From an uncultured Planctomycetota bacterium (GTDB taxonomy: Bacteria > Planctomycetota > DG-23 > CAZBND01): DNA of 64,000 nt. The notes beneath the pieces were generated by a model. It was not told the origin of the DNA. It ran no database searches and saw nothing but the letters and a program-made list of their open reading frames with translations. The stretch is taken from assembly GCA_964493415.1 (NCBI GenBank), contig CAZBND010000003.1:90229-154228 (forward strand). The letters are read 5' to 3'. Position numbers and translations under genes: made by a program. Numbering within the stretch: the first letter of the stretch is position 1; each line of letters opens with the position of its first letter. This document shows positions 13,569-27,634 of this stretch, piece by piece.

Positions 13569-15093
13569 GTTCTACGTAACGACCGCCATTCCGTACTCCA
13601 ACGCCGAGCCGCATCTCGGCACCGCGTTGGAAGCCATAGGCACCGACGTCGTTGCGCGGTGGAAGAGGCTCACGGGATACGATGTCTTCTTTCTCACGGG
13701 CATGGACGAGAACAGTCAGAAGACGGTCAAGGCTGCGGAAGAGCGCGGCGTCGAGCCTCGGCAGTTGATCGACTACATATCGGGCAAGTTCAAAGAGCTC
13801 TGGGCCAAGCTCTACATATCCTACGACGACTTCGTTCGAACCACCGAGCCGAGGCACTGGAAGGTCGCCGTCGAACTGTTCAACCGCGTGTTCAAGACGG
13901 GGGACATATACGAGGGAACCTATGCCGGATGGTATTGCGTCGGCTGCGAGAATTTCCTGTCGGAGGAAGACATCGCCGACGGCAAGTGCCCGGTCGGGCA
14001 CTCCGCAATCGAGTGGGTCTCCGAAAAGGGCTACTTCTTCCGCCTATCCAAGTACACCGACGCCGTCCGCGAGCACGTCGAGCGGCACCCTGAGTTCATC
14101 GAGCCCGACTTCCGCCGCAACGAGATCATGAACAGCTACCTCCTCCCAGGATTGAAGGATGTCTTTGTAACCCGGGAGTCTAACGGCTGGGGCATCCCGC
14201 TCCCCGTCGACCCGAGCCGCGTCCTGTACGTGTGGTTCGACGCGTTGGTGAACTACTTGACCGGCTGCGGATTCCTTTCCGACGGGGAGAAGTTCGACCG
14301 TTACTGGCCCGCCGACCTTCACGTCATCGGGAAGGACATTATCCGCTTCCACACTACCCACTGGCCTGCAATGCTCATGTCGGCAGGCCTTCCTCTTCCG
14401 AGAAGGGTATTTGTCCATGGTTTTGTAAACATCGAAGGCGTCAAGATATCCAAGTCGGCGGGCACCGCGGTGGACCCGGGCGTGCTTGTCGAGGAGTTCG
14501 GCGCAGACAGCCTTCGCTATTTCCTGATGCGAGAGGCCCCATACGCGCAAGATATATCATTTTCGCGTAAGAAGCTTGTCGAGCGCCACAACCGCGACCT
14601 CGCAAACGACCTCGGCAACCTCCTGCACCGAACGCTGACCATGGTCGCCAAATACAGGGACGGCGTCGTACCGAAAGCCGTTGACGGCGACGAAGGGAAG
14701 CCGCTTCGCGAGGCTGCCGCCGCGCTGCCGGGCTCTCTCGAACCAGAGATCGAAGCCCTTCGTTTTAACAGGGCACTCGAGCAGATCTGGGATGTGATAC
14801 GACAGGCCAACAGGTACGTGGAGGAGTCCAGCCCCTGGTCTCTCGCCAAGGAAGCTTCGCAGCAGAAACGTCTCGACTCGGTTTTATATACGCTGCTCGA
14901 GTCGATAAGGCTCGTCTCCATCTGCCTATGGCCGTTCATGCCGGCGTCGTCAGCCGAAATGCGCCGGCAGTTGGGTCTCGGCGGAACAACTGACGACGTG
15001 CCAGTCGGCCAGGGCGGGTGGGGTCTTCTCAGCCCGGGCACCAAGGTGGAGGAGGGGACGCCGGTTTTCCCCCAGAAGGAAATCTCGGAATAG
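13552..15093 (+). CDS. metG: methionyl-tRNA synthetase (short form, no C-terminal tRNA-binding domain)
   Basis: Class I aaRS motifs: HLGT (HIGH-type), KISKS, anticodon-binding helical domain. GTG start overlapping the PSP1 gene end. Confidence 0.85.
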   Translation: MGNQGKFYVTTAIPYSNAEPHLGTALEAIGTDVVARWKRLTGYDVFFLTGMDENSQKTVKAAEERGVEPRQLIDYISGKFKELWAKLYISYDDFVRTTEPRHWKVAVELFNRVFKTGDIYEGTYAGWYCVGCENFLSEEDIADGKCPVGHSAIEWVSEKGYFFRLSKYTDAVREHVERHPEFIEPDFRRNEIMNSYLLPGLKDVFVTRESNGWGIPLPVDPSRVLYVWFDALVNYLTGCGFLSDGEKFDRYWPADLHVIGKDIIRFHTTHWPAMLMSAGLPLPRRVFVHGFVNIEGVKISKSAGTAVDPGVLVEEFGADSLRYFLMREAPYAQDISFSRKKLVERHNRDLANDLGNLLHRTLTMVAKYRDGVVPKAVDGDEGKPLREAAAALPGSLEPEIEALRFNRALEQIWDVIRQANRYVEESSPWSLAKEASQQKRLDSVLYTLLESIRLVSICLWPFMPASSAEMRRQLGLGGTTDDVPVGQGGWGLLSPGTKVEEGTPVFPQKEISE

Positions 15094-15109
15094 GCGACAG
15101 GGATTACAG

Positions 15110-15532
15110 GTGAGCAGACAAGAAACATTCATCTCGCGACTTGAAGAACTGGTCCGGCAGGACCCGCGCTACAACATGGACGCTTACACTTTTCTCCTCG
15201 ACGCGCTGGGGTTCACGATTCGAATGCTCGGACGCGACAAAGAGTCGGACGATCCGGCCAAGCGCCATGTCTCCGGCCGAGAGCTGTTGGAAGGGATCAG
15301 GCGGTACGCCCTGCTGCAATTCGGCTTCATGGCCAGGGTGGTCTTCGAGGGATGGGGCGTGAAAGGTACCGATGACTTCGGGGAAATCGTCTTCAACCTT
15401 GTTGACAGGGGACTGCTGGGAAGGTCGGAGACGGACTCCAAGGAAGACTTCCACGCGGTGTACGATTTCGAGGAGGCCCTCGACCGCTCATATCGCATCG
15501 GCGGTGAGGCTCGGCTCACGCAGGAGAGCTGA
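15110..15532 (+). CDS. conserved hypothetical protein (~140 aa)
   Basis: Clean ORF with GTG start in a tight gene array. Reminiscent of a small conserved family seen in Planctomycetes/Verrucomicrobia, but I cannot name it reliably. Confidence 0.45.
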   Translation: MSRQETFISRLEELVRQDPRYNMDAYTFLLDALGFTIRMLGRDKESDDPAKRHVSGRELLEGIRRYALLQFGFMARVVFEGWGVKGTDDFGEIVFNLVDRGLLGRSETDSKEDFHAVYDFEEALDRSYRIGGEARLTQES

Positions 15533-15563
15533 ACGGGCGCAAGAATACTAACGGCCCGCATCG

Positions 15564-16664
15564 TTACCCGAAGAAGTCCCGCACGGCCTCTGCAACATAG
15601 TCAAGTTGCCCGTAGGTCATCTCCGGGAAGATCGGCAGGGACAAGACCTCCCGGGCTGCGGTTTCCGATACCGGGAAATCCCCTTCCTTGTATCCCAGTT
15701 CTTCGCACACGCGCTGCAAGTGGAGCGTAATAGGATAGTGTATCGCGCACGCGATGTCCCGGTCGACGAGCCACTCGTGCAGCGCGTCCCGCTCGGGGCA
15801 ACGGATCGTATAGTAGTTGTAGGAGTGGTAAGCATAGGGGAGTTCGACGGGCAACGATATGGGAAGTCCCTCAAGCCTGTCTCGATACGCTGCGGCAAGC
15901 TCGCGCCGCTTTTCCACCCATCTATCCAGGTGTTTGAGCTTCACCGACAGGATCGCCCCTTGAAGCCCCTCCATGCGGAAGTTGAAGCCCAGGATCGAGT
16001 GCTCGTAGCGCGAGCTCTCCCCGTGATGACGGATGAGCTTGGACTTGCGCGCTATCTCTTCGTCGTTGGTGACGACCATCCCGCCTTCCCCGAACGCCCC
16101 TAGGTTTTTCGGCGGGTAGAAACTAAAGCACCCCACGTCGGAAATCCCGCCCACCGGCTTATCTTTGTATCTCGCCCCGTTCGCCTGCGCAGCGTCCTCT
16201 ATCACCGCCACGCCACGTTCTCTGGCCAGCGAGTTTATGGGAGCAAGATCGGCGGGATGTCCATACAGGTGAACCGGTATGACGGCCCGGCTCTTCTCCG
16301 TGAAGGCGTTCTTTACCTGTTCCGGGTCCAGATTGAGGGTTTCCGGGTCCACGTCGGCGAAGCGCGGAACGGCCCCCGCGAGCAAGACGGCCTCGACATT
16401 CGCCGCGAACGTGAAAGGGCTGGTTATTACCTCGTCTCCGGCGCCGACGGCGCAGGCTCTGAGCGCCACATACAGCGCCGACGTGCCGGAGTTCACGCCC
16501 ACCGCATGGCGAGCCCCGCAGTAGTCCGCAAACTCCTTCTCGAAGCGCTCGACGAATTCGCCCAAGACGAACGCGCTCTTGTCCAGCACCTTCGCAAAGG
16601 CTTCCTCCAGCTCCGGCCTCAAACCAGCGTGCTGTTTTCCAAGATCGGTCGAGGGAACTTTCAT
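15564..16664 (-). CDS. DegT/DnrJ/EryC1/StrS family PLP-dependent nucleotide-sugar aminotransferase
   Basis: Fold-type I sugar aminotransferase motifs (GVNSGTSAL, SFYPPKNLGAFGEGG; PLP lysine context). Confidence 0.8.
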   Translation of the reverse strand: MKVPSTDLGKQHAGLRPELEEAFAKVLDKSAFVLGEFVERFEKEFADYCGARHAVGVNSGTSALYVALRACAVGAGDEVITSPFTFAANVEAVLLAGAVPRFADVDPETLNLDPEQVKNAFTEKSRAVIPVHLYGHPADLAPINSLARERGVAVIEDAAQANGARYKDKPVGGISDVGCFSFYPPKNLGAFGEGGMVVTNDEEIARKSKLIRHHGESSRYEHSILGFNFRMEGLQGAILSVKLKHLDRWVEKRRELAAAYRDRLEGLPISLPVELPYAYHSYNYYTIRCPERDALHEWLVDRDIACAIHYPITLHLQRVCEELGYKEGDFPVSETAAREVLSLPIFPEMTYGQLDYVAEAVRDFFG

Positions 16665-16695
16665 GCCGAGCGCCCTCGTGTCTTATTGGCCGTAT

Positions 16696-17994
16696 TCAGA
16701 TCTTGACTACCTTCGCTTTGCCCTTGGTGTTTTTGGTCGCATTTCTCGTGTCAACCACTATCTGGGAGTGGCTGACGACAAGCCCGATATCGATCGCGTC
16801 ATGGTCGGTCACAATCACCGCGCAGTCGTGTTCCGATAGGACCTGCGGGTTCAGCGGCTGGGAGCACAGCACTTCTCCGCCGCAGCAGAACTCGGGAACC
16901 AGCGGGTCGCAATATGATATCTCCGCGCCCTTCTCCGCAAGGTGATGCATGATCTCTGCCGCCGGTGACTCTCTGGTGTCACTCACGTTCCTCTTGTACG
17001 AGACGCCGAGGATCAGGATCCGCGAACCGTTCACACACTTGTGTTCTGAATTAAGAGCGTCAACCACTTTGGAGACCACGTACTGGGGCATGGCCGAATT
17101 TATCCGTGTGGACAGGTCGATGAAGCCGGCTTCGATGTCCATGAGTCGCGCCTTCCACGACAGGTATAGAGGATCAACCGGCAGGCAGTGCCCGCCCAAC
17201 CCGGGTCCCGGATAGAACGGCATGAATCCGAAGGGCTTTGTTGCCGCGGCGTCTATCACCTCCCAGACGTCTATGCCCATCTTGCCGCACATCATGGCGA
17301 ATTCGTTTATCAGGCTGATGTTCACCGTCCGGAACGTGTTCTCCAGCAGCTTCACCATCTCCGCGACGCGCGTTGAGGACACGGGAACCACTTCTCGAAC
17401 GATCGTCTTGTATAGTTCCACCGCCACTGCTGTGCACCGTGGCGTGATGCCCCCCACCACCTTCGGGATATTCCGCGTCTTGAATCTCGTATTGCCGGGG
17501 TCGACCCTCTCCGGCGAAAACGCCAGGAACATGTCCTTGCCCATTTCCAGCCCTTGCTTCTCGAAGACAGGCTGGATTATCTCCTCGCACGTTCCGGGAT
17601 ATGTCGTGCTCTCCAGCACCACCAGCGAACCGGTAGGAAGATGCTCTCGGATTGCCTCCACCGCCTCGACGATGTAGGAAATGTCGGGGTCCTTGGTCTT
17701 TCTCAAGGGTGTGGGGACGGATATCACCGCCACATCGCAGGATGAGAGCTGTTTCGCCTCCGTGGTCGCGACCAACTTCCCGTCGCCGGTCGCCTGTTTG
17801 AGATCGGCATCCGAGATGTCCTCGATGTAGGACTTCGACGCGTTTACTTGCGCACATCGTTGGGGATTAGTGTCTATTCCCGTCACGCGGAAGCCGGCCT
17901 TGGAGAATTCTATCGCCAGCGGAAGCCCCGCGTATCCCAGCCCTACGACGGCAATCCTTGCCTTCTTCGTGCGAATCTTTGCTTCTAAGCCCAC
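16696..17994 (-). CDS. UDP-N-acetyl-D-glucosamine/mannosamine 6-dehydrogenase family (WbpA/WecC/TviB-like)
   Basis: N-terminal Rossmann GLGYAGLP, catalytic Cys region GPGLGGHCLP, UDPG/MGDP dehydrogenase C-terminal domain. Confidence 0.8.
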   Translation of the reverse strand: MGLEAKIRTKKARIAVVGLGYAGLPLAIEFSKAGFRVTGIDTNPQRCAQVNASKSYIEDISDADLKQATGDGKLVATTEAKQLSSCDVAVISVPTPLRKTKDPDISYIVEAVEAIREHLPTGSLVVLESTTYPGTCEEIIQPVFEKQGLEMGKDMFLAFSPERVDPGNTRFKTRNIPKVVGGITPRCTAVAVELYKTIVREVVPVSSTRVAEMVKLLENTFRTVNISLINEFAMMCGKMGIDVWEVIDAAATKPFGFMPFYPGPGLGGHCLPVDPLYLSWKARLMDIEAGFIDLSTRINSAMPQYVVSKVVDALNSEHKCVNGSRILILGVSYKRNVSDTRESPAAEIMHHLAEKGAEISYCDPLVPEFCCGGEVLCSQPLNPQVLSEHDCAVIVTDHDAIDIGLVVSHSQIVVDTRNATKNTKGKAKVVKI

Positions 17995-18049: not shown

Positions 18050-19729
18050 TCACGCCGCAGTTGAGTTCAGCCCGATTATGATCCTGGCGAGCTTGGCGGG
18101 ATCGTGCCTCAGGAGGTCTTGCTTTTCCCACAGCACGCGCCTGCTCCCGCCTTCCAGCTTCTCCAGCAGGTCCGCCTCGACCACCTGGACCCCCAACCGG
18201 TGCAGGTCCTCGTCCACCTTGACCAGTTCCGCTCCCGCACGTGCATACGCCTCAAGCACTTCGGGAGGCGGTACTTTGTTGTTCACGAGCACATAATCGA
18301 GCGCTTCCGCTCCTATTTGCTCGATTATCGCCTTCACATGGTCCGAGGCGGAATAGCCGTCGGTCTGACCCGGCTGGGTCACAATATTGCATACATACAC
18401 GGTCGTGGCCTTCGATAGACGGACGGCTCCGGCGATTCCTTCGACGAGCAGGTTGCTTATCACACTGGTATACAGACTTCCGGGCCCGAGGATCACATAG
18501 TCGGCCTTGACGATCTCCTCGATAGCCTCTTCGCTCGCGGGAGCGTCTGCAAGGCTGAGGAAGACCCGCTTTATGGGCGGCTTGTTCAGCTTGCGGACGT
18601 TCAGCTCTCCCTCGATTATCTGGCCGTCGTTGAGCTCGGCGCAGATTTGCGCGTCCGCGGTGGTGGAAGGGAGGACTTTCCCCCTTATCGCCAGGATGCG
18701 GCTGGTCTCCTTCAGCGCTTCTTCAAAGCTTCCCGTCACCTTAGCGAGGGCTGCGATGAAAAGATTACCCATCGTCATGCCCTCGAGGGAGCCGTTCTCG
18801 AACCGGTACTGGAACAGCTTGTGAACCAGCTCCTCCGATTCCGCCAATGCCACCAGGCAATTGCGGATGTCCCCCGGCGGCGGCAGCCCGAAATCCGCGC
18901 GTATCTTGCCCGAACTCCTCCCCGCATCCGTGACTGCGACCACAGCCGTCAGGTCTCTCGTGTAGCTCTTGATCCCCTCCAGCAGAATCGGCAGTCCCGT
19001 TCCCCCGCCGACCGCCACCACCTTTGGGTCAGGCCCTCGTTTGCTTCTGTTTATGAACTTTATGTAGTCAACAAGCTCGGAAAGTCTGTCAATCTCGAAG
19101 TGCGGGTCCTCGAGCCCCGAACGCGGCCGCAGATCCTTGAAGCGCCCGTGCCTCATTTGCACGGTGATCATCCCGAGCCTGTTTGAAATCGTTATCTCGG
19201 AATGAATCCTATCGCCGACCGAAATAACCTCGCTCGGGTGGAGGGAATAGCTGCGCATGATATCCAGGTAGCACTCTTCCTGCGTTGGGCCACGCTCCTC
19301 GTCGCTGATGATGATCTCGTCGAAGTACGGCCTGAGCCCCAGCATGTCTATCTTGCGCTCTTGCCTGCCGTGCACTCCACGGGTTACCAGGAAAGTCATG
19401 ATGGAAGCTTCGCGCAGCCTGCTCAGCGTGGGAACAACGTCAGGGAAGGGCCTGATGTCCAGCACTTCATCGCTGTTGTAGCCTTCCAGGGCCGCCTTGA
19501 CAAGTTCGTCTCCCATGCCGTACGTCTGGGCGATCTTGTCGAAGGCGTTTACCCGGGGGCCAAATCGCTCGGCGATTTCCAACTGCTTTTGGTAGGCGGC
19601 CTCTTCCGAGAGCGGAAGCCCCGCCCGCACCATGGCCCTGGCTGCGCGCCGTCGTGCCGCTTCAACCAATAGGCCGCTGCAGTCGTAGAGCGTGTCGTCC
19701 AGGTCGAAAATCGCAGCTCTTACGCTCAC
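18050..19729 (-). CDS. fusion: N-terminal HAD-superfamily phosphatase domain + YvcK/CofD-family (UPF0052, gluconeogenesis factor) domain
   Basis: Residues 1-~215 carry HAD motifs (FDLDDTLYD, SVGDRIHSEI). Residues ~225-559 align by eye over the whole length with B. subtilis YvcK (GGGTGLPILL, PPPGDIRNCLVAL, LGPGSLYTSV, TDGYSASDH). Confidence 0.75.
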   Translation of the reverse strand: MSVRAAIFDLDDTLYDCSGLLVEAARRRAARAMVRAGLPLSEEAAYQKQLEIAERFGPRVNAFDKIAQTYGMGDELVKAALEGYNSDEVLDIRPFPDVVPTLSRLREASIMTFLVTRGVHGRQERKIDMLGLRPYFDEIIISDEERGPTQEECYLDIMRSYSLHPSEVISVGDRIHSEITISNRLGMITVQMRHGRFKDLRPRSGLEDPHFEIDRLSELVDYIKFINRSKRGPDPKVVAVGGGTGLPILLEGIKSYTRDLTAVVAVTDAGRSSGKIRADFGLPPPGDIRNCLVALAESEELVHKLFQYRFENGSLEGMTMGNLFIAALAKVTGSFEEALKETSRILAIRGKVLPSTTADAQICAELNDGQIIEGELNVRKLNKPPIKRVFLSLADAPASEEAIEEIVKADYVILGPGSLYTSVISNLLVEGIAGAVRLSKATTVYVCNIVTQPGQTDGYSASDHVKAIIEQIGAEALDYVLVNNKVPPPEVLEAYARAGAELVKVDEDLHRLGVQVVEADLLEKLEGGSRRVLWEKQDLLRHDPAKLARIIIGLNSTAA

Positions 19730-20987: not shown

Positions 20988-21116
20988 CCTTTCCGGCTCT
21001 CGCCGCCACTCCACAACGCTCAGCCCTCCAGGGAGTAATGGCGCTCCACTGAGGCGTTCTCCAGAGACGAGAATCGTAAGAGGAAGAGCAGTGAAAGCCG
21101 TTGCATAAGGTCCAGG

Positions 21117-21189
21117 TGGAGATAGCGGGATTCGAACCCGCGACCTCGGCAATGCGAGTGCCGCGCTCTCCCAACTGAGCTATATCCCC
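21117..21189 (-). tRNA. tRNA-Ala (anticodon CGC)
   Basis: Reverse complement GGGGATATAGCTCAGTTGGGAGAGCGCGGCACTCGCATTGCCGAGGTCGCGGGTTCGAATCCCGCTATCTCCA folds as a cloverleaf with a G3:U70 Ala identity pair and anticodon loop CTCGCAT. CCA not encoded. Confidence 0.85.
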
Positions 21190-21335
21190 GGTTTGCCGCT
21201 CTAGAAAGATACTACATTCGCGGGCTTTCCAAGTCAACCCCGCTCGCGCTGTGGCCGGCCCCGGTCCCGTCCCCGAAAGGGGGGCGTCCGCGCCCGTTGT
21301 GATTGACTTCTCTCCGCCTGCAACGTTAGAATCCA

Positions 21336-22400
21336 TTGGTGATTTCGGGGATGCCTATGCCTTCCGACCTTGTGGTCATACGCGCCTCCAAGCCGGATTC
21401 GAACGTTGCCGAGCTCCTGCGCGAAAAGGGGGCGCGCATCGTACCCTTTGCCGAGGGTTACTCCGAAGCCTACATGCCCAGCGCCCGCGTCCTCGTTTAC
21501 AGGAAAACGGCTCATTCGTTCCTTGCCTCCCTCGAAGATAGAACCCTCTTCGTCGAGGCCACTGAGAGCGCCGACGGAGACAAGGCCGGCGTATTTCTCA
21601 TAGAAGGCGAGGACTTGCTTGAGACGCGGGGGTTCCATCCCAATGCCGTCAGGGGGGCCGTCACGTCGCTCATTCTCCAGTACGGTGTTTCCGTAGTTAC
21701 CAGCGAGTCGCCCGAGGAAACTGCTGAACTCATCCTCATGATGGCCAAGCAGGAGCAGCACGGTATCCCCGAGACAACGCTTCATCCGAAAAGGCGTGCC
21801 ATAGACATGCCTGATACGCAACGCCGCGTCGTCGAAATGCTGCCCGGGACGGGCCTTGTCATCGCCAGGGAGCTTCTCAAGAAGTTCGGTACCATAGAGA
21901 AAATCGCCTCGGCATCCGTTGAGGAGCTGGCCGAGGTGAAAGGGGTAGGCAAGGCGAAGGCGGGCGCAATCCGCAGGGTATTCGCGGAGCGCTACGAGGA
22001 CGTGGACAGCGAACGCGAAATAGAGGATGCGCTCGCCGAAGACCCCTCTCTCCTCTTTCCGAAAGCGCCAACGCTTCTCGCCAGGCAGCACCGCCTCCGG
22101 CTCGAAGACGGGACCCAGGGCGTAATCGACATGCTCTTTCTCGACGAAAGGGACCGGATTCTCTACGTCGTCGAGGTGAAGAAGCAGCCGGTGACCCTGA
22201 TGGACTACAGGCAGGTAAAGGCGTACATGCAGGCCGCAGCGAACTCCGAACTCATAGCGCGCCACCTGCGAGCCGGCGCTTCACTCCATGGCATCCTGGT
22301 TTCCGTTGCCCAGTCGAACTTTCAGTCTCCCAGCGAATCGGTCGAAGTGCGCGCCGTGGACAAGGCCAAAGTGCTGCAAGCGCTCGGGAAGATGCGATGA
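21336..22400 (+). CDS. three-domain nuclease-family protein: ERCC4/ERCC1-like fold (catalytic motifs apparently degenerate) + HhH2 + C-terminal PD-(D/E)xK (NucS/restriction-endonuclease-like) domain
   Basis: The N-terminal ~150 aa align by eye with archaeal XPF/Hef nuclease domains, but with YRK in place of ERK and no DxRE or GDY acidic residues. GTGLVIARELLKKFG...VKGVGKAKAGAI forms a tandem HhH. The C-terminal IDMLFLDERDRILYVVEVKK fits a D...(D/E)xK nuclease core. TTG start; the stop overlaps the mrfA ATG (ATGA). Confidence 0.55.
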   Translation: MVISGMPMPSDLVVIRASKPDSNVAELLREKGARIVPFAEGYSEAYMPSARVLVYRKTAHSFLASLEDRTLFVEATESADGDKAGVFLIEGEDLLETRGFHPNAVRGAVTSLILQYGVSVVTSESPEETAELILMMAKQEQHGIPETTLHPKRRAIDMPDTQRRVVEMLPGTGLVIARELLKKFGTIEKIASASVEELAEVKGVGKAKAGAIRRVFAERYEDVDSEREIEDALAEDPSLLFPKAPTLLARQHRLRLEDGTQGVIDMLFLDERDRILYVVEVKKQPVTLMDYRQVKAYMQAAANSELIARHLRAGASLHGILVSVAQSNFQSPSESVEVRAVDKAKVLQALGKMR

Positions 22401-24709
22401 GCTTCGTGGACTTCATATACGCGCTCGAAAAGGCCCCCGGACTGAGGGGACGCGCGGTTCACATCGAGGAGATCCCGGCTAGACAGGCGCGATACGGCAA
22501 GCTCCGCAGGCGGCTCCCCGCCGAAGTCCAGGTCGCGCTTGACCGAATGGAAATCCGCAGGCTCTACGTTCACCAGTCGAAAGCGATTAATCTCGTGCGC
22601 GAATCCAAGGACGTCGTCATTGCTACCTCCACGGCCAGCGGCAAGACCCTTTGCTATAACATCCCCGTAGCCGAGCGACTTGTCTCCGATGAATCGGCCC
22701 GCGCACTCTACATCTTTCCCACCAAGGCCCTCGCTCAGGATCAGCTCAGGGCGCTGGGCGAGTTTGCAAGAGACGTCCCCCCCCTTCTTGACGCGCTCAA
22801 TGCGGGAACCTACGACGGTGACACTCCCAGCGCGAGCCGCAGGAAGGTCCGCCAGAGCATGCGAATCGTCCTCACAAATCCCGACATGATTCACCAGGGA
22901 ATTTTACCCTATCACGCCAAGTGGGCCGATTTCTTCGAAGGCCTCTCGTACATCGTGGTGGACGAGATACATCAATATCGCGGGATATTCGGCTCACACG
23001 TGGCTAACGTCTTCAGGCGCCTCAGGCGAGTGTGCGCCAGATACGGAGCGGACCCGACGTTCGTCTGCTGTTCCGCGACCATCTCCAACCCCAAGCAGCT
23101 TGCCGAACGGCTCAGCGGCAAGGCAATGGAACTGGTTGATGAAGACGGTTCCCCCCAGGGCAAGAAGTACTTCGCTCTCTGGAACCCCCCGCTTCTCCCC
23201 GGCCAGGACTTCGTGCGCAAGAGTTCCAACGTCGAAGCCAAGGAGGCTCTCGTGGACCTCGTGAAGAAGGGGGTCCCGACGATCGTGTTCACCAACGCCC
23301 GCGTCGTCGCCGAACTCATATATCGATACGCGCATGACGATCTTAACGCCCAGGCGCCGGCGCTCGCCGACCGAGTGCGCCCCTACCGCGGCGGATACCT
23401 GCCCTCGGAGCGGCGTGAGATCGAAAAGCAGTTGTTCTCCGGAGAGCTGCTGGCCGTCACGGCGACATCCGCGCTGGAACTCGGAATCGACGTCGGCACG
23501 CTGGAAGCCTGCATAATGGTCGGGTTCCCGGGCTCGATCGCCAGCATGTGGCAGCGGGCCGGCCGCGCAGGCCGAAGGTCCGACGAAAGCCTGGTCATGC
23601 TCATAGCCTATGACGATCCCATCGACCAGTACTTCATGAGGCACCCGCGGTATCTGTTCGGCGAGAGCGTCGAGGAGGCGATAATCGAGCCCGAGAACAA
23701 GTACATCCTCGCGTCCCATCTCGGGTGCGCCGCTTTCGAAATCCCCGTCAGACAGGTGGACGAGAATCGGTTCGGGGCCCTTACAGTGCCGATCTCGAAT
23801 GCGTTGGCCGAGGCGGGGGCCTTAAAGAAATCGGGCGACGGCTACTACTGGTCATCGGCCGATTTTCCGGCCTCGAAAATCTCTCTTCGGACGATCTCGG
23901 GGGACACCTACGCCATCATCGAGAAGACATCCGAAGGTGTGGGCACGCTCGGGCAGGTCGATTCGATCAGTGCGCCGGAGCTGCTCTATCCTGGGGCCGT
24001 CTACATGCACCAGGGACAGACATATCTGGTGCGTCGCCTGGACACCGAAGGCAAGGTGGCCCACGTGGAGGGAGCTGAGGTCGATTACTACACGCAGCCG
24101 ATCCTGGATTCCGCCGTGCGCGTGCTGAGCACTGACCAGGAGCGACGCACGGCAAACGCCGCCGTTTGCTTCGGCGGCGTGCACGTCCGCTGGGCCACCG
24201 TCGGCTTCAAGAAAGTCCAGTTCTACTCCGGCAACCCCATAGGGTACGGCAAGCTTGATCTGCCCGCGCAGAACATGGAGACAAAAGGCTTCTGGCTGAT
24301 CCCCGACAGAGACGTCCTGGAGGAGGTCGCCGCTGCCGGGCTCTCCTGTTCCGAGGGTCTGTGGGCTGTCAGGAACCTTTTGCTGGTGCTCCTGCCCGTG
24401 CTTTCCGGCTGCGACCGGTCCGACCTCCGCGGCACCGTCAACTTCCGGGAGGCGGGCTCTCCCGCCGTCTTTATCTACGACTGGTATCTCGGTGGGCTCG
24501 GGCTCACTGAACGTGCATACGAGCGCGCCGAGGAACTGCTGAGCGCATGCAAAGAGGTGATAGCCGATTGCCCGTGTGAGGACGGCTGCCCATCGTGCGT
24601 CGGCTTCGTCATGCCTTCCAGGCCCCTTCACCAGGACCCCGACCTGTCGGGCGGAAAGCGAATACCCAGCAGGAAAGCCGCTAGGGCGCTCCTCGACCTG
24701 CTGACCTAG
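22397..24709 (+). CDS. mrfA: MrfA/YprA-family DExH-box helicase with C-terminal DUF1998 zinc-binding domain
   Basis: Helicase motifs (TASGKT, DEIHQYRG, SATISN, ARG finger QRAGRAGR). C-terminal four-Cys DUF1998 (CPCEDGCPSCVGF). About 770 aa, like B. subtilis YprA. Confidence 0.8.
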   Translation: MSFVDFIYALEKAPGLRGRAVHIEEIPARQARYGKLRRRLPAEVQVALDRMEIRRLYVHQSKAINLVRESKDVVIATSTASGKTLCYNIPVAERLVSDESARALYIFPTKALAQDQLRALGEFARDVPPLLDALNAGTYDGDTPSASRRKVRQSMRIVLTNPDMIHQGILPYHAKWADFFEGLSYIVVDEIHQYRGIFGSHVANVFRRLRRVCARYGADPTFVCCSATISNPKQLAERLSGKAMELVDEDGSPQGKKYFALWNPPLLPGQDFVRKSSNVEAKEALVDLVKKGVPTIVFTNARVVAELIYRYAHDDLNAQAPALADRVRPYRGGYLPSERREIEKQLFSGELLAVTATSALELGIDVGTLEACIMVGFPGSIASMWQRAGRAGRRSDESLVMLIAYDDPIDQYFMRHPRYLFGESVEEAIIEPENKYILASHLGCAAFEIPVRQVDENRFGALTVPISNALAEAGALKKSGDGYYWSSADFPASKISLRTISGDTYAIIEKTSEGVGTLGQVDSISAPELLYPGAVYMHQGQTYLVRRLDTEGKVAHVEGAEVDYYTQPILDSAVRVLSTDQERRTANAAVCFGGVHVRWATVGFKKVQFYSGNPIGYGKLDLPAQNMETKGFWLIPDRDVLEEVAAAGLSCSEGLWAVRNLLLVLLPVLSGCDRSDLRGTVNFREAGSPAVFIYDWYLGGLGLTERAYERAEELLSACKEVIADCPCEDGCPSCVGFVMPSRPLHQDPDLSGGKRIPSRKAARALLDLLT

Positions 24710-25068
24710 CGGCCGGTTCCCTCGACGCGGATCGTCTCCTCGAACTCATCGCCGTTTCTGATCAGCACCGATATCGACGTCTCGTCCGGCGATTCCCGGA
24801 ATTCCAGGTGCTCGGCCTGCGTGACGGGCTGGAGATCATCGCAAACCGATTCCAGCAGCCGGATGCGGCCCGCCGATGCCGCAACCACCAGCGCCTCGAT
24901 CTTCCTGCGATATAGATTGTAGAAGGCAACCTGACGCGCGGGCGGTATGATACAATGTCTCACGGCAAAGGCAACCTTGGGCCTTCACGAAGCTCCCCGG
25001 CGCTGCTCGCTCGCGGAGATTGACTCTTCCCCTCAGCCATGATAAAAATCAGCGGAGGAAATGATTGC

Positions 25069-25944
25069 ATGAAAAGCGACAGAGCGCGCAGACTCCTTGA
25101 GAAGCTGCGAAGCGTCGGGAGCCCGGTGGTGTCCGGCAGCGACTTGGATGATATTCGCCGGAAAGCCGCCCGAGAGTACGAGCCCGTCCCGATCAAGGAA
25201 GCCCTGCAGGGGAAGATCCGGAGGACAAAGAGCGGCGCAGTGTGGCTGGTTGAGTGCACGGCCGCGGACGTCAGGCCGAGCGCCGGCGAACTTGAGCAAA
25301 GGTACCTCAGGGTCTTCAGACATGCTTCCACTTCGCGACCCCACGAGGAATACCACCCCGAGGTCCGGCACTGCCTTCGCGGGGGGCTCGACCGCTTGCT
25401 GTTCCTAGACGTCGAGACCACCGGCCTGCAGTCGGCCATGATATTCCTTGTGGGGACCATGCGCTGGGTCGGCGACGGCTTCCTGATAAGGCAGTTCTTC
25501 GCCCGGGATTACCCCGAAGAGTCCGCGGTCATGGAGTCCGTTCGCCGGGAGGGATCCGCCGCCGGAGTCCTTGTGACCTTCAATGGCAAGACCTTCGATC
25601 TTCCTTCCCTTCACGACAGGGCTAGGTACCACGGGGTCCATTTCCGCTGGACCAAGCCTCACTGCGACCTTCTCCACGAAGCCAGACGACAGTGGAAGAA
25701 CATTCTTCCCAACTGCCGTTTGCAGACGCTTGAAGCCGCCGTCTGCGGCACGCCGAGGGGAGCAGACATACCGGGGTGGGAGATACCGAACGCCTACCAC
25801 GAGTACGCCAGGACGGGAGACGCTCGAAAGATGACCGCCATTGCAAATCACAACGCTCGCGACCTTCTCGCCATGGCGGACATATTGGTCTCGGTCCTCG
25901 AAGGCCGCGTGCCCGAGAGCATCGACTGGACAAGTCTTGCCTGA
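25069..25944 (+). CDS. mrfB: MrfB/YprB-family RNase H-like DEDD 3'-5' exonuclease
   Basis: Exo I motif LFLDVETTGL and RNase_H_2 (PolB-exo-like) architecture. Start set at the ATG (25069) preceded by GGAGG; the ORF also opens at ATG 25039. Confidence 0.65.
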   Translation: MKSDRARRLLEKLRSVGSPVVSGSDLDDIRRKAAREYEPVPIKEALQGKIRRTKSGAVWLVECTAADVRPSAGELEQRYLRVFRHASTSRPHEEYHPEVRHCLRGGLDRLLFLDVETTGLQSAMIFLVGTMRWVGDGFLIRQFFARDYPEESAVMESVRREGSAAGVLVTFNGKTFDLPSLHDRARYHGVHFRWTKPHCDLLHEARRQWKNILPNCRLQTLEAAVCGTPRGADIPGWEIPNAYHEYARTGDARKMTAIANHNARDLLAMADILVSVLEGRVPESIDWTSLA

Positions 25945-26056
25945 CCTGCCCGCCGCGCGGCGTGACCTCCAGCCGCCACGCGGGATTCTATATCGGCGGC
26001 GCGCTCAAGCCCAGCGTCCACTTCCTTCGATAACAATAGAATGGGGTCCCACCACG

Positions 26057-27634
26057 GTGCCCTATGGACCGAATTGCGCAGACTGCGCAGGAGTTCTTGC
26101 CTTGCCCGACCGCAATTCCGACTCGCGCAATTTCGAACTGGTGGAGCGGCTGACCGAGATAGGGATCGCCCTTTCCAGCGAACGCGACCTGGGCTCCCTC
26201 CTCCACAGGATAGTCTTCGAAGGGAGGAAGTTCACCTCCGCCGATGCGGGAAGCCTTTACTTGATCGAGGACGGCGCGCTCGTCTTCAAGGTCGCCCAGA
26301 ACGAGACGCTCAAGAGCCAGGGAAAGCCTGAAGGCGAATTCGACTTCCAGCTTCCGCTCTCGCGGAAGAGCATCGCCGGCTACGTTGCCCTCACAGGACG
26401 GCCGGTCAATATCAATGACGTCTACGCCATACCGGCCGAAGCCGAGTACCGCTGGTACGCGGAGTTTGACAAGCAAACCGGCTACAAGACGGTATCGACG
26501 CTCGCCGTTCCCATGAGAGACCATCGAGGCGAGACAATAGGCGTCCTCCAGTTGATAAATTCTCTGGACTCTTCGGCCAACGTCGTCCCTTTCCGGAAAG
26601 ACTACGAGAAGCTGGTCACCTCCCTGGCGTCCCAGGCCGCAGTGGCCGTGAACAACGTGCGCCTGCTTGCCCGCATCAGGGACCTCTTCAGCGCTTTCGT
26701 CCGGTACTCGGCCGCGGCAATCGACGCCCGAAGCCATTACACCGAGGGGCACACCAGGCGGGTGGCGGGACTTTCCCTGCGGGTAGCCCGGGCCATGAAC
26801 GAGGAGACTTCCGGCGGCCTGGCAAACGTCAAGTTTTCCGAAGAGGAGATCGAGGAGCTGAACTACGCCGCATGGCTGCACGACATCGGGAAGATTGGGG
26901 TCAAGGAGCACGTTCTCGACAAGGCCGCGCGGCTCTTCGTCGGTCCTCGGATCGACACGATCACCAGCCGATTCGAGTCCATCAAGAAGGGCATAGCAGC
27001 TGACTGCGCCCAGGGTAAGATCGAGGCACTTCGCCGCGGGGCATCCGACTCCGAGCTTTCGCGCCTCGATGCCGAAATGCACAACCAGCTTGCGCAGGTC
27101 GATGACGACCTCGAGTTCATTCTGACCGTCAACAAGGCGAACTGGATATCCGACGAGCAGCGTGACCGGGTGAAGGCCATTTCGAGGAAGACCTTCTCCG
27201 CCTCAGACGGGACGCCCAGACGCTATCTTCTCCCCGATGAGGTGAGGCACCTGACCGTAGGCAGGGGCAACCTGACGACCGAGGAATACGACGAAGTCCA
27301 GACCCATGTCGACAAGACCATGCGCATCATAGAGAAGATACCATTCACCAGCGAGCTCCGCAACGCGCCGCTGTACGCCGCCAGCCATCACGAAAAGCTG
27401 GACGGGAAGGGTTATCCGAAGGGGCTCAAGGGCGACGATATTCCCATGCAGGCCAGGATTCTGGCGGCGGCAGACATCTTCGAGGCTCTTACTGCGAAAG
27501 ACCGCCCCTACAAGGCCCCCATTCCGTTGGAAAAGGCCCTTGGCATTCTAAAAGAAGAGGCCGACGCAGGGCACCTCGACCAGAGAGTCGTCGAGCTGAT
27601 CATTCGCCGGAGACTCTACGAGGGTCTTGAGTAG
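26057..27634 (+). CDS. GAF domain + HD-GYP domain protein (probable c-di-GMP phosphodiesterase)
   Basis: GAF domain (~residues 100-260 of the ORF) followed by HD-GYP (HDIGK ... HHEKLDGKGYPKGL). Start uncertain; GTG 26057 is the first in-frame start after the mrfB stop. Confidence 0.7.
   Translation: MPYGPNCADCAGVLALPDRNSDSRNFELVERLTEIGIALSSERDLGSLLHRIVFEGRKFTSADAGSLYLIEDGALVFKVAQNETLKSQGKPEGEFDFQLPLSRKSIAGYVALTGRPVNINDVYAIPAEAEYRWYAEFDKQTGYKTVSTLAVPMRDHRGETIGVLQLINSLDSSANVVPFRKDYEKLVTSLASQAAVAVNNVRLLARIRDLFSAFVRYSAAAIDARSHYTEGHTRRVAGLSLRVARAMNEETSGGLANVKFSEEEIEELNYAAWLHDIGKIGVKEHVLDKAARLFVGPRIDTITSRFESIKKGIAADCAQGKIEALRRGASDSELSRLDAEMHNQLAQVDDDLEFILTVNKANWISDEQRDRVKAISRKTFSASDGTPRRYLLPDEVRHLTVGRGNLTTEEYDEVQTHVDKTMRIIEKIPFTSELRNAPLYAASHHEKLDGKGYPKGLKGDDIPMQARILAAADIFEALTAKDRPYKAPIPLEKALGILKEEADAGHLDQRVVELIIRRRLYEGLE

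What the first reader, a model, noticed from the sequence alone, without database searches (positions are those of the whole stretch)
21336..25944. Candidate expanded MrfAB-type repair or nucleic-acid-processing module: three-domain nuclease translationally coupled to a DExH/DUF1998 helicase, then a DEDD exonuclease
Three same-strand genes encode the module. The first (21336-22400) is an ERCC1/XPF-fold + HhH2 + PD-(D/E)xK nuclease. The second (22397-24709) is an MrfA/YprA-type DExH helicase with a C-terminal four-Cys DUF1998; its ATG overlaps the nuclease stop in an ATGA junction. The third (25069-25944) is an MrfB/YprB-type RNase H-like DEDD exonuclease, separated by a ~360-bp spacer. In B. 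subtilis, MrfA and MrfB form a nucleotide-excision-repair-independent mitomycin-C crosslink repair pathway; I know of no MrfA partnered with an XPF/ERCC1-like structure-specific nuclease. The combination recreates a split Hef-like helicase-plus-ERCC4 arrangement, and DUF1998 also occurs in the DISARM defence component DrmB. This could be an unrecognised inter-strand crosslink repair pathway or a defence-type nucleic-acid-processing system. A GAF/HD-GYP signalling gene follows immediately.
Basis: partly seen in the sequence, partly recalled or inferred. Interest (0 to 1): 0.72.

Follow-up and report, generated by a model that had tools for sequence, protein, structure and literature searches.

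The report
MrfAB repair operon with extra nuclease
A bacterial DNA-repair operon (helicase MrfA plus exonuclease MrfB) carries a rare third gene for a hybrid cutting enzyme, built from an inactivated XPF-type scaffold and a NucS-type nuclease domain, that could supply the DNA-cutting step missing from the published model of this pathway.

Summary
Three same-strand genes lie at 21357-22400 (A), 22397-24709 (B) and 25069-25944 (C). A's stop and B's start overlap in ATGA.

B is a full-length MrfA/YprA helicase (E=1e-203 to B. subtilis MrfA). C is a DEDDh MrfB-type exonuclease.

The family is very rare: 43 representatives at E<=1e-10 among 1.84 billion. It sits repeatedly in repair neighbourhoods. 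Of 19 lineages with >=8 kb on both flanks, 9 lie near MrfA (usually with MrfB, in at least four gene orders across several phyla) and 4 near an AlkZ-like crosslink glycosylase, often with a UvrA paralogue or Lhr. MrfA and AlkZ never share a locus.

The nearest MrfA helicases outside this clade have plain MrfAB without A.

Best reading: a three-component, excision-type repair module for bulky adducts or crosslinks, in which A makes the incision. A defence role is disfavoured. Function is inferred, not shown. No publication describing this was found.

The parts
21303..21332 (+). Promoter-like -35/-10 pair (TTGACT-18-TAGAAT) upstream of gene A
   Evidence: Consensus scan, 10 of 12 matches. ATTGAC...GTTAGAAT is invariant in the window, L001, L086 and L002, while the surrounding intergenic DNA has diverged. 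Function as a promoter is inferred.
21357..22400 (+). Gene A: 347-aa chimeric nuclease (alternative TTG start at 21336)
   Evidence: ORF. Homologues are 346-347 aa. AF2 model has pLDDT 87. Three domains are listed below.
21369..21761 (+). Gene A residues ~5-135: ERCC4 (XPF/Hef) fold with a degenerate active site
21804..21992 (+). Gene A residues ~150-212: (HhH)2 domain
21999..22397 (+). Gene A residues ~215-347: NucS-type PD-(D/E)xK nuclease domain, predicted active
22397..24709 (+). Gene B: MrfA/YprA-type DExH 3'-5' DNA helicase (770 aa), start overlapping A's stop (ATGA)
   Evidence: DEAD, Helicase_C, WHD_HRQ1 and MZB domains. B. subtilis MrfA 6znp: E=1e-203, aligned over residues 20-737. 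TIGR03817 7.5e-226. Junction read directly.
24721..24939 (-). Relic of the C-terminal 69 residues of an aminoacyl-tRNA synthetase gene. Fills the B-C spacer and is not a functional part of the module.
   Evidence: tblastn with the intact gene of L001 (11383-13848, -): 55% identity, E=2e-18. L001 and L086 carry the whole gene between B and C; L002 has a 46-bp gap. The 85-aa ORF at 24706-24963 has no Pfam match.
25020..25049 (+). Promoter-like site (TTGACT-18-AAAAAT) upstream of gene C
   Evidence: Consensus scan only, 9 of 12 matches. Not tested for conservation.
25069..25944 (+). Gene C: MrfB/YprB-type DEDDh 3'-5' exonuclease (291 aa), without the TPR domain of B. subtilis MrfB
   Evidence: RNase_H_2 1.1e-33 at residues 121-284 of the 301-aa ORF. 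MrfB core 8un9: E=2.7e-17, with DxE, D and H..D aligned. The start at 25069 matches the only ATG available in L001. No TPR match.

Best explanation
This is a three-component variant of the MrfAB excision-type DNA repair system for bulky adducts or crosslinks.

Gene B is an orthologue-grade MrfA helicase that translocates 3'-5' and peels away the damaged strand. Gene C is the MrfB 3'-5' DEDDh exonuclease that degrades that strand.

Gene A encodes the added component, a structure-specific endonuclease. Its XPF-type ERCC4 domain has lost catalysis. Together with the (HhH)2 domain it would serve as a dimerisation and junction-binding scaffold, as ERCC1, EME1 and FAAP24 do. A C-terminal NucS-type PD-(D/E)xK domain would do the cutting.

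Proposed sequence: MrfA opens the duplex at the lesion. A binds the single-strand/duplex junction and nicks the damaged strand. This creates the free 3' end that MrfB needs. Gap filling and ligation follow.

Shown here: domain identities, the active-site states, the operon structure and the recurrent linkage. Inferred: dimerisation, substrate, incision polarity, physical interaction with MrfA or MrfB, and the lesion class.
For: Identity of the parts:
- B matches B. subtilis MrfA end to end at E=1e-203.
- C matches the MrfB core with DEDDh kept.
- Selection pattern: the NucS-type catalytic residues are invariant in 100 of 100 lineages, and no lineage keeps a complete ERCC4 site.

Operon evidence:
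- The ATGA overlap recurs in L001, L086 and the 43%-identical Victivallales locus L015.
- Tight A-C-B operons occur in L013, L107, L110 and L118, and a B-A pair with a 10-nt gap in L014.
- The promoter-like element is conserved.

Linkage:
- MrfA lies near A in 9 of 19 lineages with >=8 kb flanks and 10 of 27 with >=5 kb. My estimate of the chance expectation is about 0.4% per lineage, assuming one copy in a 4-5 Mb genome.
- MrfA and AlkZ-like are the two most widely shared neighbour families, each next to 12 A lineages.
- Independent support for a damage-repair role: other lineages of A sit beside an AlkZ-like glycosylase (PF06224, 8.8e-69), a UvrA paralogue (2.8e-222) or long-form Lhr.

Context in the window and its relatives is housekeeping and syntenic. 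Related canonical MrfAB pairs lie next to LexA and a Y-family polymerase.

Gap in the known model: the MrfAB model names no endonuclease. MrfB prefers DNA ends and is only slightly active at nicks (10.1101/426304). 'Other unknown partners' and 'a yet to be identified factor' are invoked (PMC11194089; PMC7797055).
Against: - There are no experimental data for any member. All come from metagenome-assembled or metagenomic contigs.
- 6 of 19 well-flanked lineages have neither MrfA nor AlkZ within 8-10 kb, so A does not strictly need an adjacent partner.
- Five of five nearest non-clade MrfA helicases lack A, so MrfAB works without it.
- NucS itself is best known as a mismatch endonuclease that makes double-strand breaks, so the chemistry could differ from a single-strand incision.
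- The lineages are not phylogenetically independent, so the counts overstate the number of independent events.
- Neighbour detection relied on tblastn thresholds and crude ORF calls.
Confidence: 0.6

Rival explanations
1. Gene A is a general-purpose, self-sufficient structure-specific or mismatch endonuclease (NucS-like). It merely clusters with other repair genes and does not work with MrfA and MrfB as one machine.
For: The family also occurs next to AlkZ, UvrA2, Lhr and DUF5591 genes, or with none of them: 6 of 19 well-flanked lineages have neither MrfA nor AlkZ. The C-terminal domain is NucS-like, and NucS acts on its own as a dimer (for the fold; NucS biology from established knowledge).
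Against: Start-stop overlaps and gaps of a few to about 46 nt with MrfA or MrfB recur in at least four gene orders across phyla. That pattern is typical of co-translated, interacting partners. MrfA-type and AlkZ-type partners are mutually exclusive (0 of 100 lineages have both), which suggests A plugs into one upstream lesion processor at a time and is not simply drifting among repair genes.
Confidence: 0.2
2. The trio processes stalled or crosslink-blocked replication forks, like Hef/FANCM-FAAP24 and XPF-ERCC1 unhooking, and does not excise adducts from intact duplex DNA. MrfA would remodel the fork and A would cut a fork arm.
For: The closest relatives of A's scaffold are Hef, XPF and FANCM-FAAP24. 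The alternative partners AlkZ/YcaQ are interstrand-crosslink glycosylases (Pfam name). The yeast MrfA homologue Hrq1 reduces mitomycin C sensitivity (PMC7797055).
Against: [quoted passage not shown] Nothing in the sequence distinguishes fork from bubble substrates. No clamp-binding motif was examined.
Confidence: 0.13
3. The trio is an anti-phage or anti-plasmid defence system of the YprA-helicase type (DISARM/Druantia/ARMADA-like), in which A is the effector nuclease.
Against: B belongs to the repair branch: an end-to-end match to MrfA and pairing with MrfB, which Bell et al. separate from the defence branch. The PADLOC hits cover only generic cores. No methyltransferase, DrmB/C or similar gene is adjacent. 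Flanks are housekeeping genes in stable synteny across 66-77% identity relatives, and the trio persists in the 53% relative L003 although its upstream flank differs. None of this looks like a variable island. The other partners of A are DNA-repair genes.
Confidence: 0.05

Closest known systems
MrfAB (YprAB) mitomycin C repair system of Bacillus subtilis
   Same: A helicase with the DExH core, winged helix and OB-CON-MZB (four-Cys) array, E=1e-203. An adjacent DEDDh exonuclease. The same strand, in an operon-like arrangement.
   Different: A third, translationally coupled endonuclease gene precedes the helicase. The exonuclease lacks the C-terminal TPR domain described for B. subtilis MrfB and has a ~105-120-residue N-terminal extension. 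The nearest sampled canonical MrfAB loci lack gene A.
Archaeal XPF / Hef nuclease module (ERCC4 + (HhH)2)
   Different: The catalytic GDXnERKX3D motif is degenerate in all 100 bacterial lineages. An extra C-terminal nuclease domain is present. The protein is bacterial, and the helicase is a separate protein of a different SF2 family (MrfA, not Hef/FANCM type).
Non-catalytic ERCC4 paralogues (ERCC1, EME1/2, FAAP24, FANCM C-terminus)
   Different: Those proteins heterodimerise with a catalytic ERCC4 partner, or have none. Here the catalytic centre is supplied in cis by an unrelated PD-(D/E)xK domain.
NucS / EndoMS endonuclease
   Different: The NucS N-terminal DNA-binding and dimerisation domain is absent, replaced by ERCC4-(HhH)2. 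The whole-protein NucS score is far below cutoff (25.7 vs 216 bits).
AlkZ/YcaQ crosslink glycosylase, UvrA-paralogue and Lhr repair clusters
   Same: These are the alternative neighbours of the same nuclease family in other lineages, which suggests a shared type of lesion.
   Different: None of these genes is present in the window. They never co-occur with MrfA beside gene A.
YprA-family defence systems (DISARM, Dpd, Druantia, ARMADA, BRIGADE, TALON)
   Same: A helicase superfamily with DUF1998/MZB, and frequent association with nucleases.
   Different: B is in the repair (MrfAB) branch. There is no fused nuclease. None of the partner genes of those systems was found in the window or among the called genes around the trio in relatives L001-L003. 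The context is housekeeping.

Membership tests
MrfAB repair system | MrfA-type SF2 helicase: DExH core + winged helix + MZB/DUF1998 with four Cys | tested here: met
   DEAD 1e-31, Helicase_C, WHD_HRQ1 6e-13 and MZB 5e-19. DEIH and CPCEDGCPSC are in the sequence. 6znp match at E=1e-203 over residues 20-737.
MrfAB repair system | Adjacent same-strand DEDDh (DnaQ-superfamily) exonuclease MrfB | tested here: met
   RNase_H_2 1.1e-33. MrfB 8un9 at 2.7e-17 with D-x-E, D and H..D aligned. In the window it is separated from B only by a 359-bp spacer holding a gene relic, and it is directly adjacent in L002 and L003.
MrfAB repair system | C-terminal TPR domain on MrfB, as in B. subtilis | tested here: not met
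   No TPR family is matched in the 291/301-aa protein. This is probably not a defining feature of the system.
MrfAB repair system | Confers UvrABC-independent resistance to mitomycin C | not testable with these tools
   Needs genetics. Only the literature definition is available.
XPF/MUS81 (ERCC4) nuclease family | ERCC4 fold followed by (HhH)2 | tested here: met
   Pfam ERCC4 57 bits against a cutoff of 24; HHH_5 and HHH_2 above cutoff. Structural matches to Hef, XPF and Mus81.
XPF/MUS81 (ERCC4) nuclease family | Catalytic motif GDXnERKX3D plus the upstream acidic pair | tested here: not met
   The window protein reads SEAY...YRKT...S. Across 100 lineages the upstream D and E are never kept, K is R in 82, and the last D is kept in 2. 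Gene A is therefore a non-catalytic ERCC4 paralogue, not an XPF nuclease.
Hef (helicase-nuclease fusion) | N-terminal Hef/FANCM-type SF2 helicase fused to ERCC4-(HhH)2 | tested here: not met
   Only positions 580-780 of the 781-position Hef model are matched (158 bits against a cutoff of 610). The neighbouring helicase is MrfA-type, not Hef-type.
NucS/EndoMS | C-terminal RecB-like nuclease domain with D, ExK and QxxxY | tested here: met
NucS/EndoMS | NucS N-terminal DNA-binding/dimerisation domain and a whole-protein score above the curated cutoff | tested here: not met
   No NucS N-terminal-domain family appears among the Pfam matches for A. NCBIfam NucS scores 25.7 bits against a cutoff of 216, matching only residues 218-323.
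YprA-type defence systems (DISARM/Druantia/Dpd/ARMADA) | System-specific partner genes or fused nuclease/extra domains, and location in a defence island | tested here: not met
   PADLOC gives only partial core hits. The neighbours are a tRNA, GTP cyclohydrolase II, GAF/HD-GYP, TPR and rhomboid genes in conserved synteny.

The most novel reading that the evidence does not exclude
Gene A is the missing incision or lesion-targeting factor of a UvrABC-independent excision pathway. It would be a bacterial functional analogue of XPF-ERCC1, built by fusing a dead archaeal-type XPF scaffold to a NucS nuclease. It would act as a portable incision module that docks onto alternative lesion processors: MrfA/MrfB in some lineages, and AlkZ-type crosslink glycosylases, UvrA paralogues or Lhr in others.
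Probability: 0.4. Interest if true: 0.78.

Novelty: new variant of a known kind. Interest (0 to 1): 0.62.

Why it matters
The MrfAB pathway was defined genetically in B. subtilis, but its mechanism has an acknowledged hole. A helicase and a 3'-5' exonuclease cannot by themselves open an intact damaged strand, and the authors invoke unidentified partners. A nuclease gene that is translationally coupled to mrfA, recurs in several phyla and has a clear active-site prediction gives a concrete, testable candidate for that step.

It also documents an undescribed domain architecture, ERCC4(dead)-(HhH)2-NucS. XPF-type scaffolds are normally treated as archaeal and eukaryotic, so this extends them into bacteria. 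It links that architecture to two other crosslink or adduct repair gene sets (AlkZ-like glycosylase with a UvrA paralogue, and Lhr).

The limits are real. The family is rare, is known only from uncultivated bacteria, and has no experimental support yet.

Tried and rejected
- GAF/HD-GYP gene as part of the module: rejected. It is present only in the closest relatives and absent from L003 and all other lineages.
- The 85-aa minus-strand ORF in the B-C spacer as a small gene: rejected. It is the relic of a deleted aminoacyl-tRNA synthetase gene.
- Defence-system assignment through PADLOC: only generic helicase-core and PD-(D/E)xK hits.
- Regulatory RNA in the region: Rfam finds only the two tRNAs.
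- SOS-type or other palindromic operator upstream of A: the alignment of four relatives shows only the -35/-10 elements conserved.
- The whole-protein Foldseek search was dominated by XPF hits and hid the C-terminal domain.
- PDB relative for the recurrent DUF5591 neighbour: none.
- Literature searches for ERCC4+AlkZ, for bacterial XPF/ERCC4, and for NucS/ERCC4 fusions: nothing relevant.
- The GDY column in the 100-sequence alignment was offset by a residue or so. For that position I relied on alignment A1.
- My first crude ORF-based neighbour clustering produced antisense shadow ORFs, which I disregarded.

Full report
**Observation**

The three ORFs are real and lie on the + strand.

- Gene A spans 21336-22400 as an ORF. 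Its homologues are 346-347 aa, so the ATG at 21357 is the likely start.
- Gene B spans 22397-24709. Positions 22397-22400 read ATGA, so B's ATG overlaps A's TGA.
- Gene C most likely starts at 25069, which corresponds to the only start codon available in relative L001, and ends at 25944.
- A tRNA-Ala gene lies just upstream on the other strand.
- A −35/−10-like pair at 21303-21332 is invariant in four relatives while the surrounding intergenic DNA has diverged. It is probably the operon's promoter.

**The parts**

Gene B is an MrfA/YprA helicase.
- It has DEAD, Helicase_C, WHD_HRQ1 and MZB/DUF1998 domains.
- It matches the crystal-structure sequence of B. subtilis MrfA over residues 20-737 at E=1e-203.

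Gene C is an MrfB-type exonuclease.
- RNase_H_2 scores 1e-33.
- The only PDB sequence match is the MrfB core, at 2.7e-17, with the DEDDh residues aligned.
- It lacks the TPR domain of B. subtilis MrfB.

Gene A has three domains.
- The first ~215 residues match ERCC4 plus (HhH)2: Pfam, the C-terminal nuclease portion of the Hef model at 2e-46, and Aeropyrum pernix XPF at 4e-40.

**Which active site is alive**

I tabulated both sites across 100 de-replicated lineages of the family.
- NucS-type residues: E219, E223, R243, Q244, D258, E273, K275, Q286 and Y290 are invariant in all 100.
- ERCC4 site: never complete. The upstream acidic pair is always lost, the catalytic Lys is Arg in 82 lineages, and the final Asp survives in 2.
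- The window's own clade has also lost the Glu of ERK. It reads SEAY…YRKT…S where archaeal XPF rows have GDY…ERKT…D.

Gene A is therefore a chimera: a non-catalytic XPF-type scaffold, as in ERCC1, EME1 and FAAP24, carrying a NucS-type nuclease.

**Distribution**

The family is very rare.
- A word-indexed search of 5.8 billion proteins found about 21 full-length members.
- An exhaustive profile search of 1.84 billion representatives with the C-terminal domain found 43 at E≤1e-10. The strongest are full-length ~350-aa proteins or apparent fragments.
- Genome and metagenome scans recovered loci from MAGs of Planctomycetota, Verrucomicrobiota, Lentisphaerota/Victivallales, Armatimonadota, Chloroflexota, Poribacteria and Brocadiia.
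- The window is closest to an uncultured Planctomycetota MAG (66% identity).
- The shorter hits are archaeal XPF/Hef without the C-terminal domain.

**Linkage**

In the window's clade the A-B-C trio is kept at 77%, 66% and 53% identity. In the 53% relative the upstream flank is different and the GAF/HD-GYP gene is missing.

Outside the clade, MrfA lies beside A in several other arrangements:

| Order | Loci | Junctions |
|---|---|---|
| A-C-B | L013, L107, L110, L118 | gaps up to ~46 nt (start codons inferred) |
| B-A | L014 | 10-nt gap |
| A-B | L015 | 4-nt overlap |
| B, one intervening gene, A | L119 | 1.7 kb apart |

Counts for the 100 de-replicated lineages:

| Flank on both sides | Lineages | Near MrfA | Near AlkZ-like | Neither |
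|---|---|---|---|---|
| ≥8 kb | 19 | 9 | 4 | 6 |
| ≥5 kb | 27 | 10 | 5 | 12 |

A single-copy gene in a 4-5 Mb genome would fall within 10 kb by chance about 0.4% of the time (my estimate). The lineages are not all independent, but the different gene orders and phyla imply several independent or long-maintained associations.

The AlkZ-like glycosylase (PF06224, 8.8e-69) is often immediately downstream of A. In Chloroflexota-type loci it is accompanied by a UvrA paralogue (TIGR00630, 2.8e-222). In two lineages long-form Lhr is present.

MrfA-type and AlkZ-type partners never share a locus.

**The helicase side**

I sampled the five nearest helicases outside the clade (54-55% identity). None has an ERCC4 gene within 6 kb. 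Three have MrfB directly downstream, one has it 4.7 kb away, and one has none. One of these pairs sits beside LexA and a Y-family polymerase. Gene A is therefore a rare, recurrent add-on to an otherwise standard MrfAB pair.

**The spacer**

The 359-bp B-C gap is the relic of an aminoacyl-tRNA synthetase gene. That gene is intact between B and C in the 77% relatives L001 and L086 and absent in L002. It has no bearing on function. It probably explains why C has its own promoter-like site.

**Mechanism (inferred)**

In the published model, MrfA unwinds the adducted strand and MrfB degrades it. No endonuclease is named. MrfB prefers DNA ends and barely acts at nicks. Unidentified partners or targeting factors are invoked.

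A junction-binding scaffold with a live nuclease, co-translated with MrfA, fits the missing incision step. MrfA would open the duplex, A would nick at the single-strand/duplex junction, and MrfB would enter at the new 3' end. The alternative pairing with AlkZ-like glycosylases, UvrA paralogues and Lhr suggests the same lesion class (bulky adducts or crosslinks) and a modular role for A.

I put this at 0.6. The rivals are:
- A is an autonomous NucS-like enzyme that merely clusters with repair genes (0.2).
- The trio is a fork-processing, Hef-like system (0.13).
- The trio is a defence system (0.05). This is disfavoured because B is in the repair branch as defined by Bell et al., the context is housekeeping and syntenic, and PADLOC gives only generic hits.

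**Comparison and novelty**

The helicase and exonuclease pass the membership tests for MrfAB. Gene A fails membership of the catalytic XPF nucleases (motif not met), of Hef (no fused helicase) and of NucS (no N-terminal domain, score far below cutoff), while sharing folds with all three.

The broadest survey of YprA-family neighbourhoods does not mention such a partner, and targeted literature searches found none.

I class this as a new variant of a known kind: a known repair system with an undescribed third component that has an undescribed domain architecture. Interest is 0.62. It offers a concrete candidate for an acknowledged mechanistic gap and an unusual bacterial XPF-type protein. It is rare, known only from uncultivated organisms, and unsupported by experiment.

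Noticed in passing
window 24721-24939 (-): Relic of the last 69 residues of an aminoacyl-tRNA synthetase gene (55% identity to the intact gene in L001). The whole gene sits between the helicase and exonuclease genes in L001 and L086, so this lineage has deleted it.
   Followed up: yes
L091:9017-9943; L114:9016-9951; L127:3023-4009: A ~308-aa protein with a DUF5591 (archaeosine-synthase-like) domain lies next to the gene-A family in 10-11 lineages, sometimes together with AlkZ-like and Lhr genes and never with MrfA. It has no solved relative by sequence, and its role is unknown.
   Followed up: partly
L018:11067-11993 (also L029, L043, L161-L163, L005): A conserved ~308-aa protein with no Pfam or NCBIfam match sits immediately downstream of gene A in 9 lineages, mostly Chloroflexota-type loci, ahead of the AlkZ-like glycosylase.
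   Followed up: no
L018:12003-19145 and syntenic loci L029, L034, L043, L161: A conserved cluster downstream of gene A holds an AlkZ-like glycosylase, a Methyltransf_32 protein, a metallophosphoesterase and a UvrA paralogue. It looks like a dedicated adduct or crosslink repair island.
   Followed up: partly
L114:13195-18417; L127:4061-8176: Long-form Lhr helicases (DEAD_assoc and WH_Lhr domains) lie within a few kb downstream of gene A. The L127 protein also has a weak AlkZ-like match at residues 982-1097.
   Followed up: partly
L013:12081-14411 and 14365-17202: Two MrfA-like helicase genes in tandem follow gene A and the MrfB-like gene in a Verrucomicrobiota MAG. Both have the full DEAD, Helicase_C, WHD_HRQ1 and MZB domain set.
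   Followed up: partly
L168:2699-9331: A canonical MrfA-MrfB pair without gene A lies beside LexA, a Y-family polymerase and a DUF72 gene. This suggests SOS-type regulation of this helicase branch in some bacteria. L170 also has the polymerase and DUF72 nearby.
   Followed up: no
window 21115-21237 (-): tRNA-Ala(CGC) has its own conserved promoter-like site (TTGACT-17-TAGTAT, 21237-21209), divergent from the promoter of gene A. Both elements are conserved in relatives.
   Followed up: partly
window 18050-19729 (-): A 559-aa protein fuses a HAD-type hydrolase domain to a CofD/YvcK-type domain. It is conserved in the same position in L001 and L002.
   Followed up: no
window 25841-27634 (+): The GAF/HD-GYP ORF is listed from a TTG at 25841 that overlaps gene C. 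Homologues are 510-512 aa, so the real start is probably near 26090-26100.
   Followed up: partly
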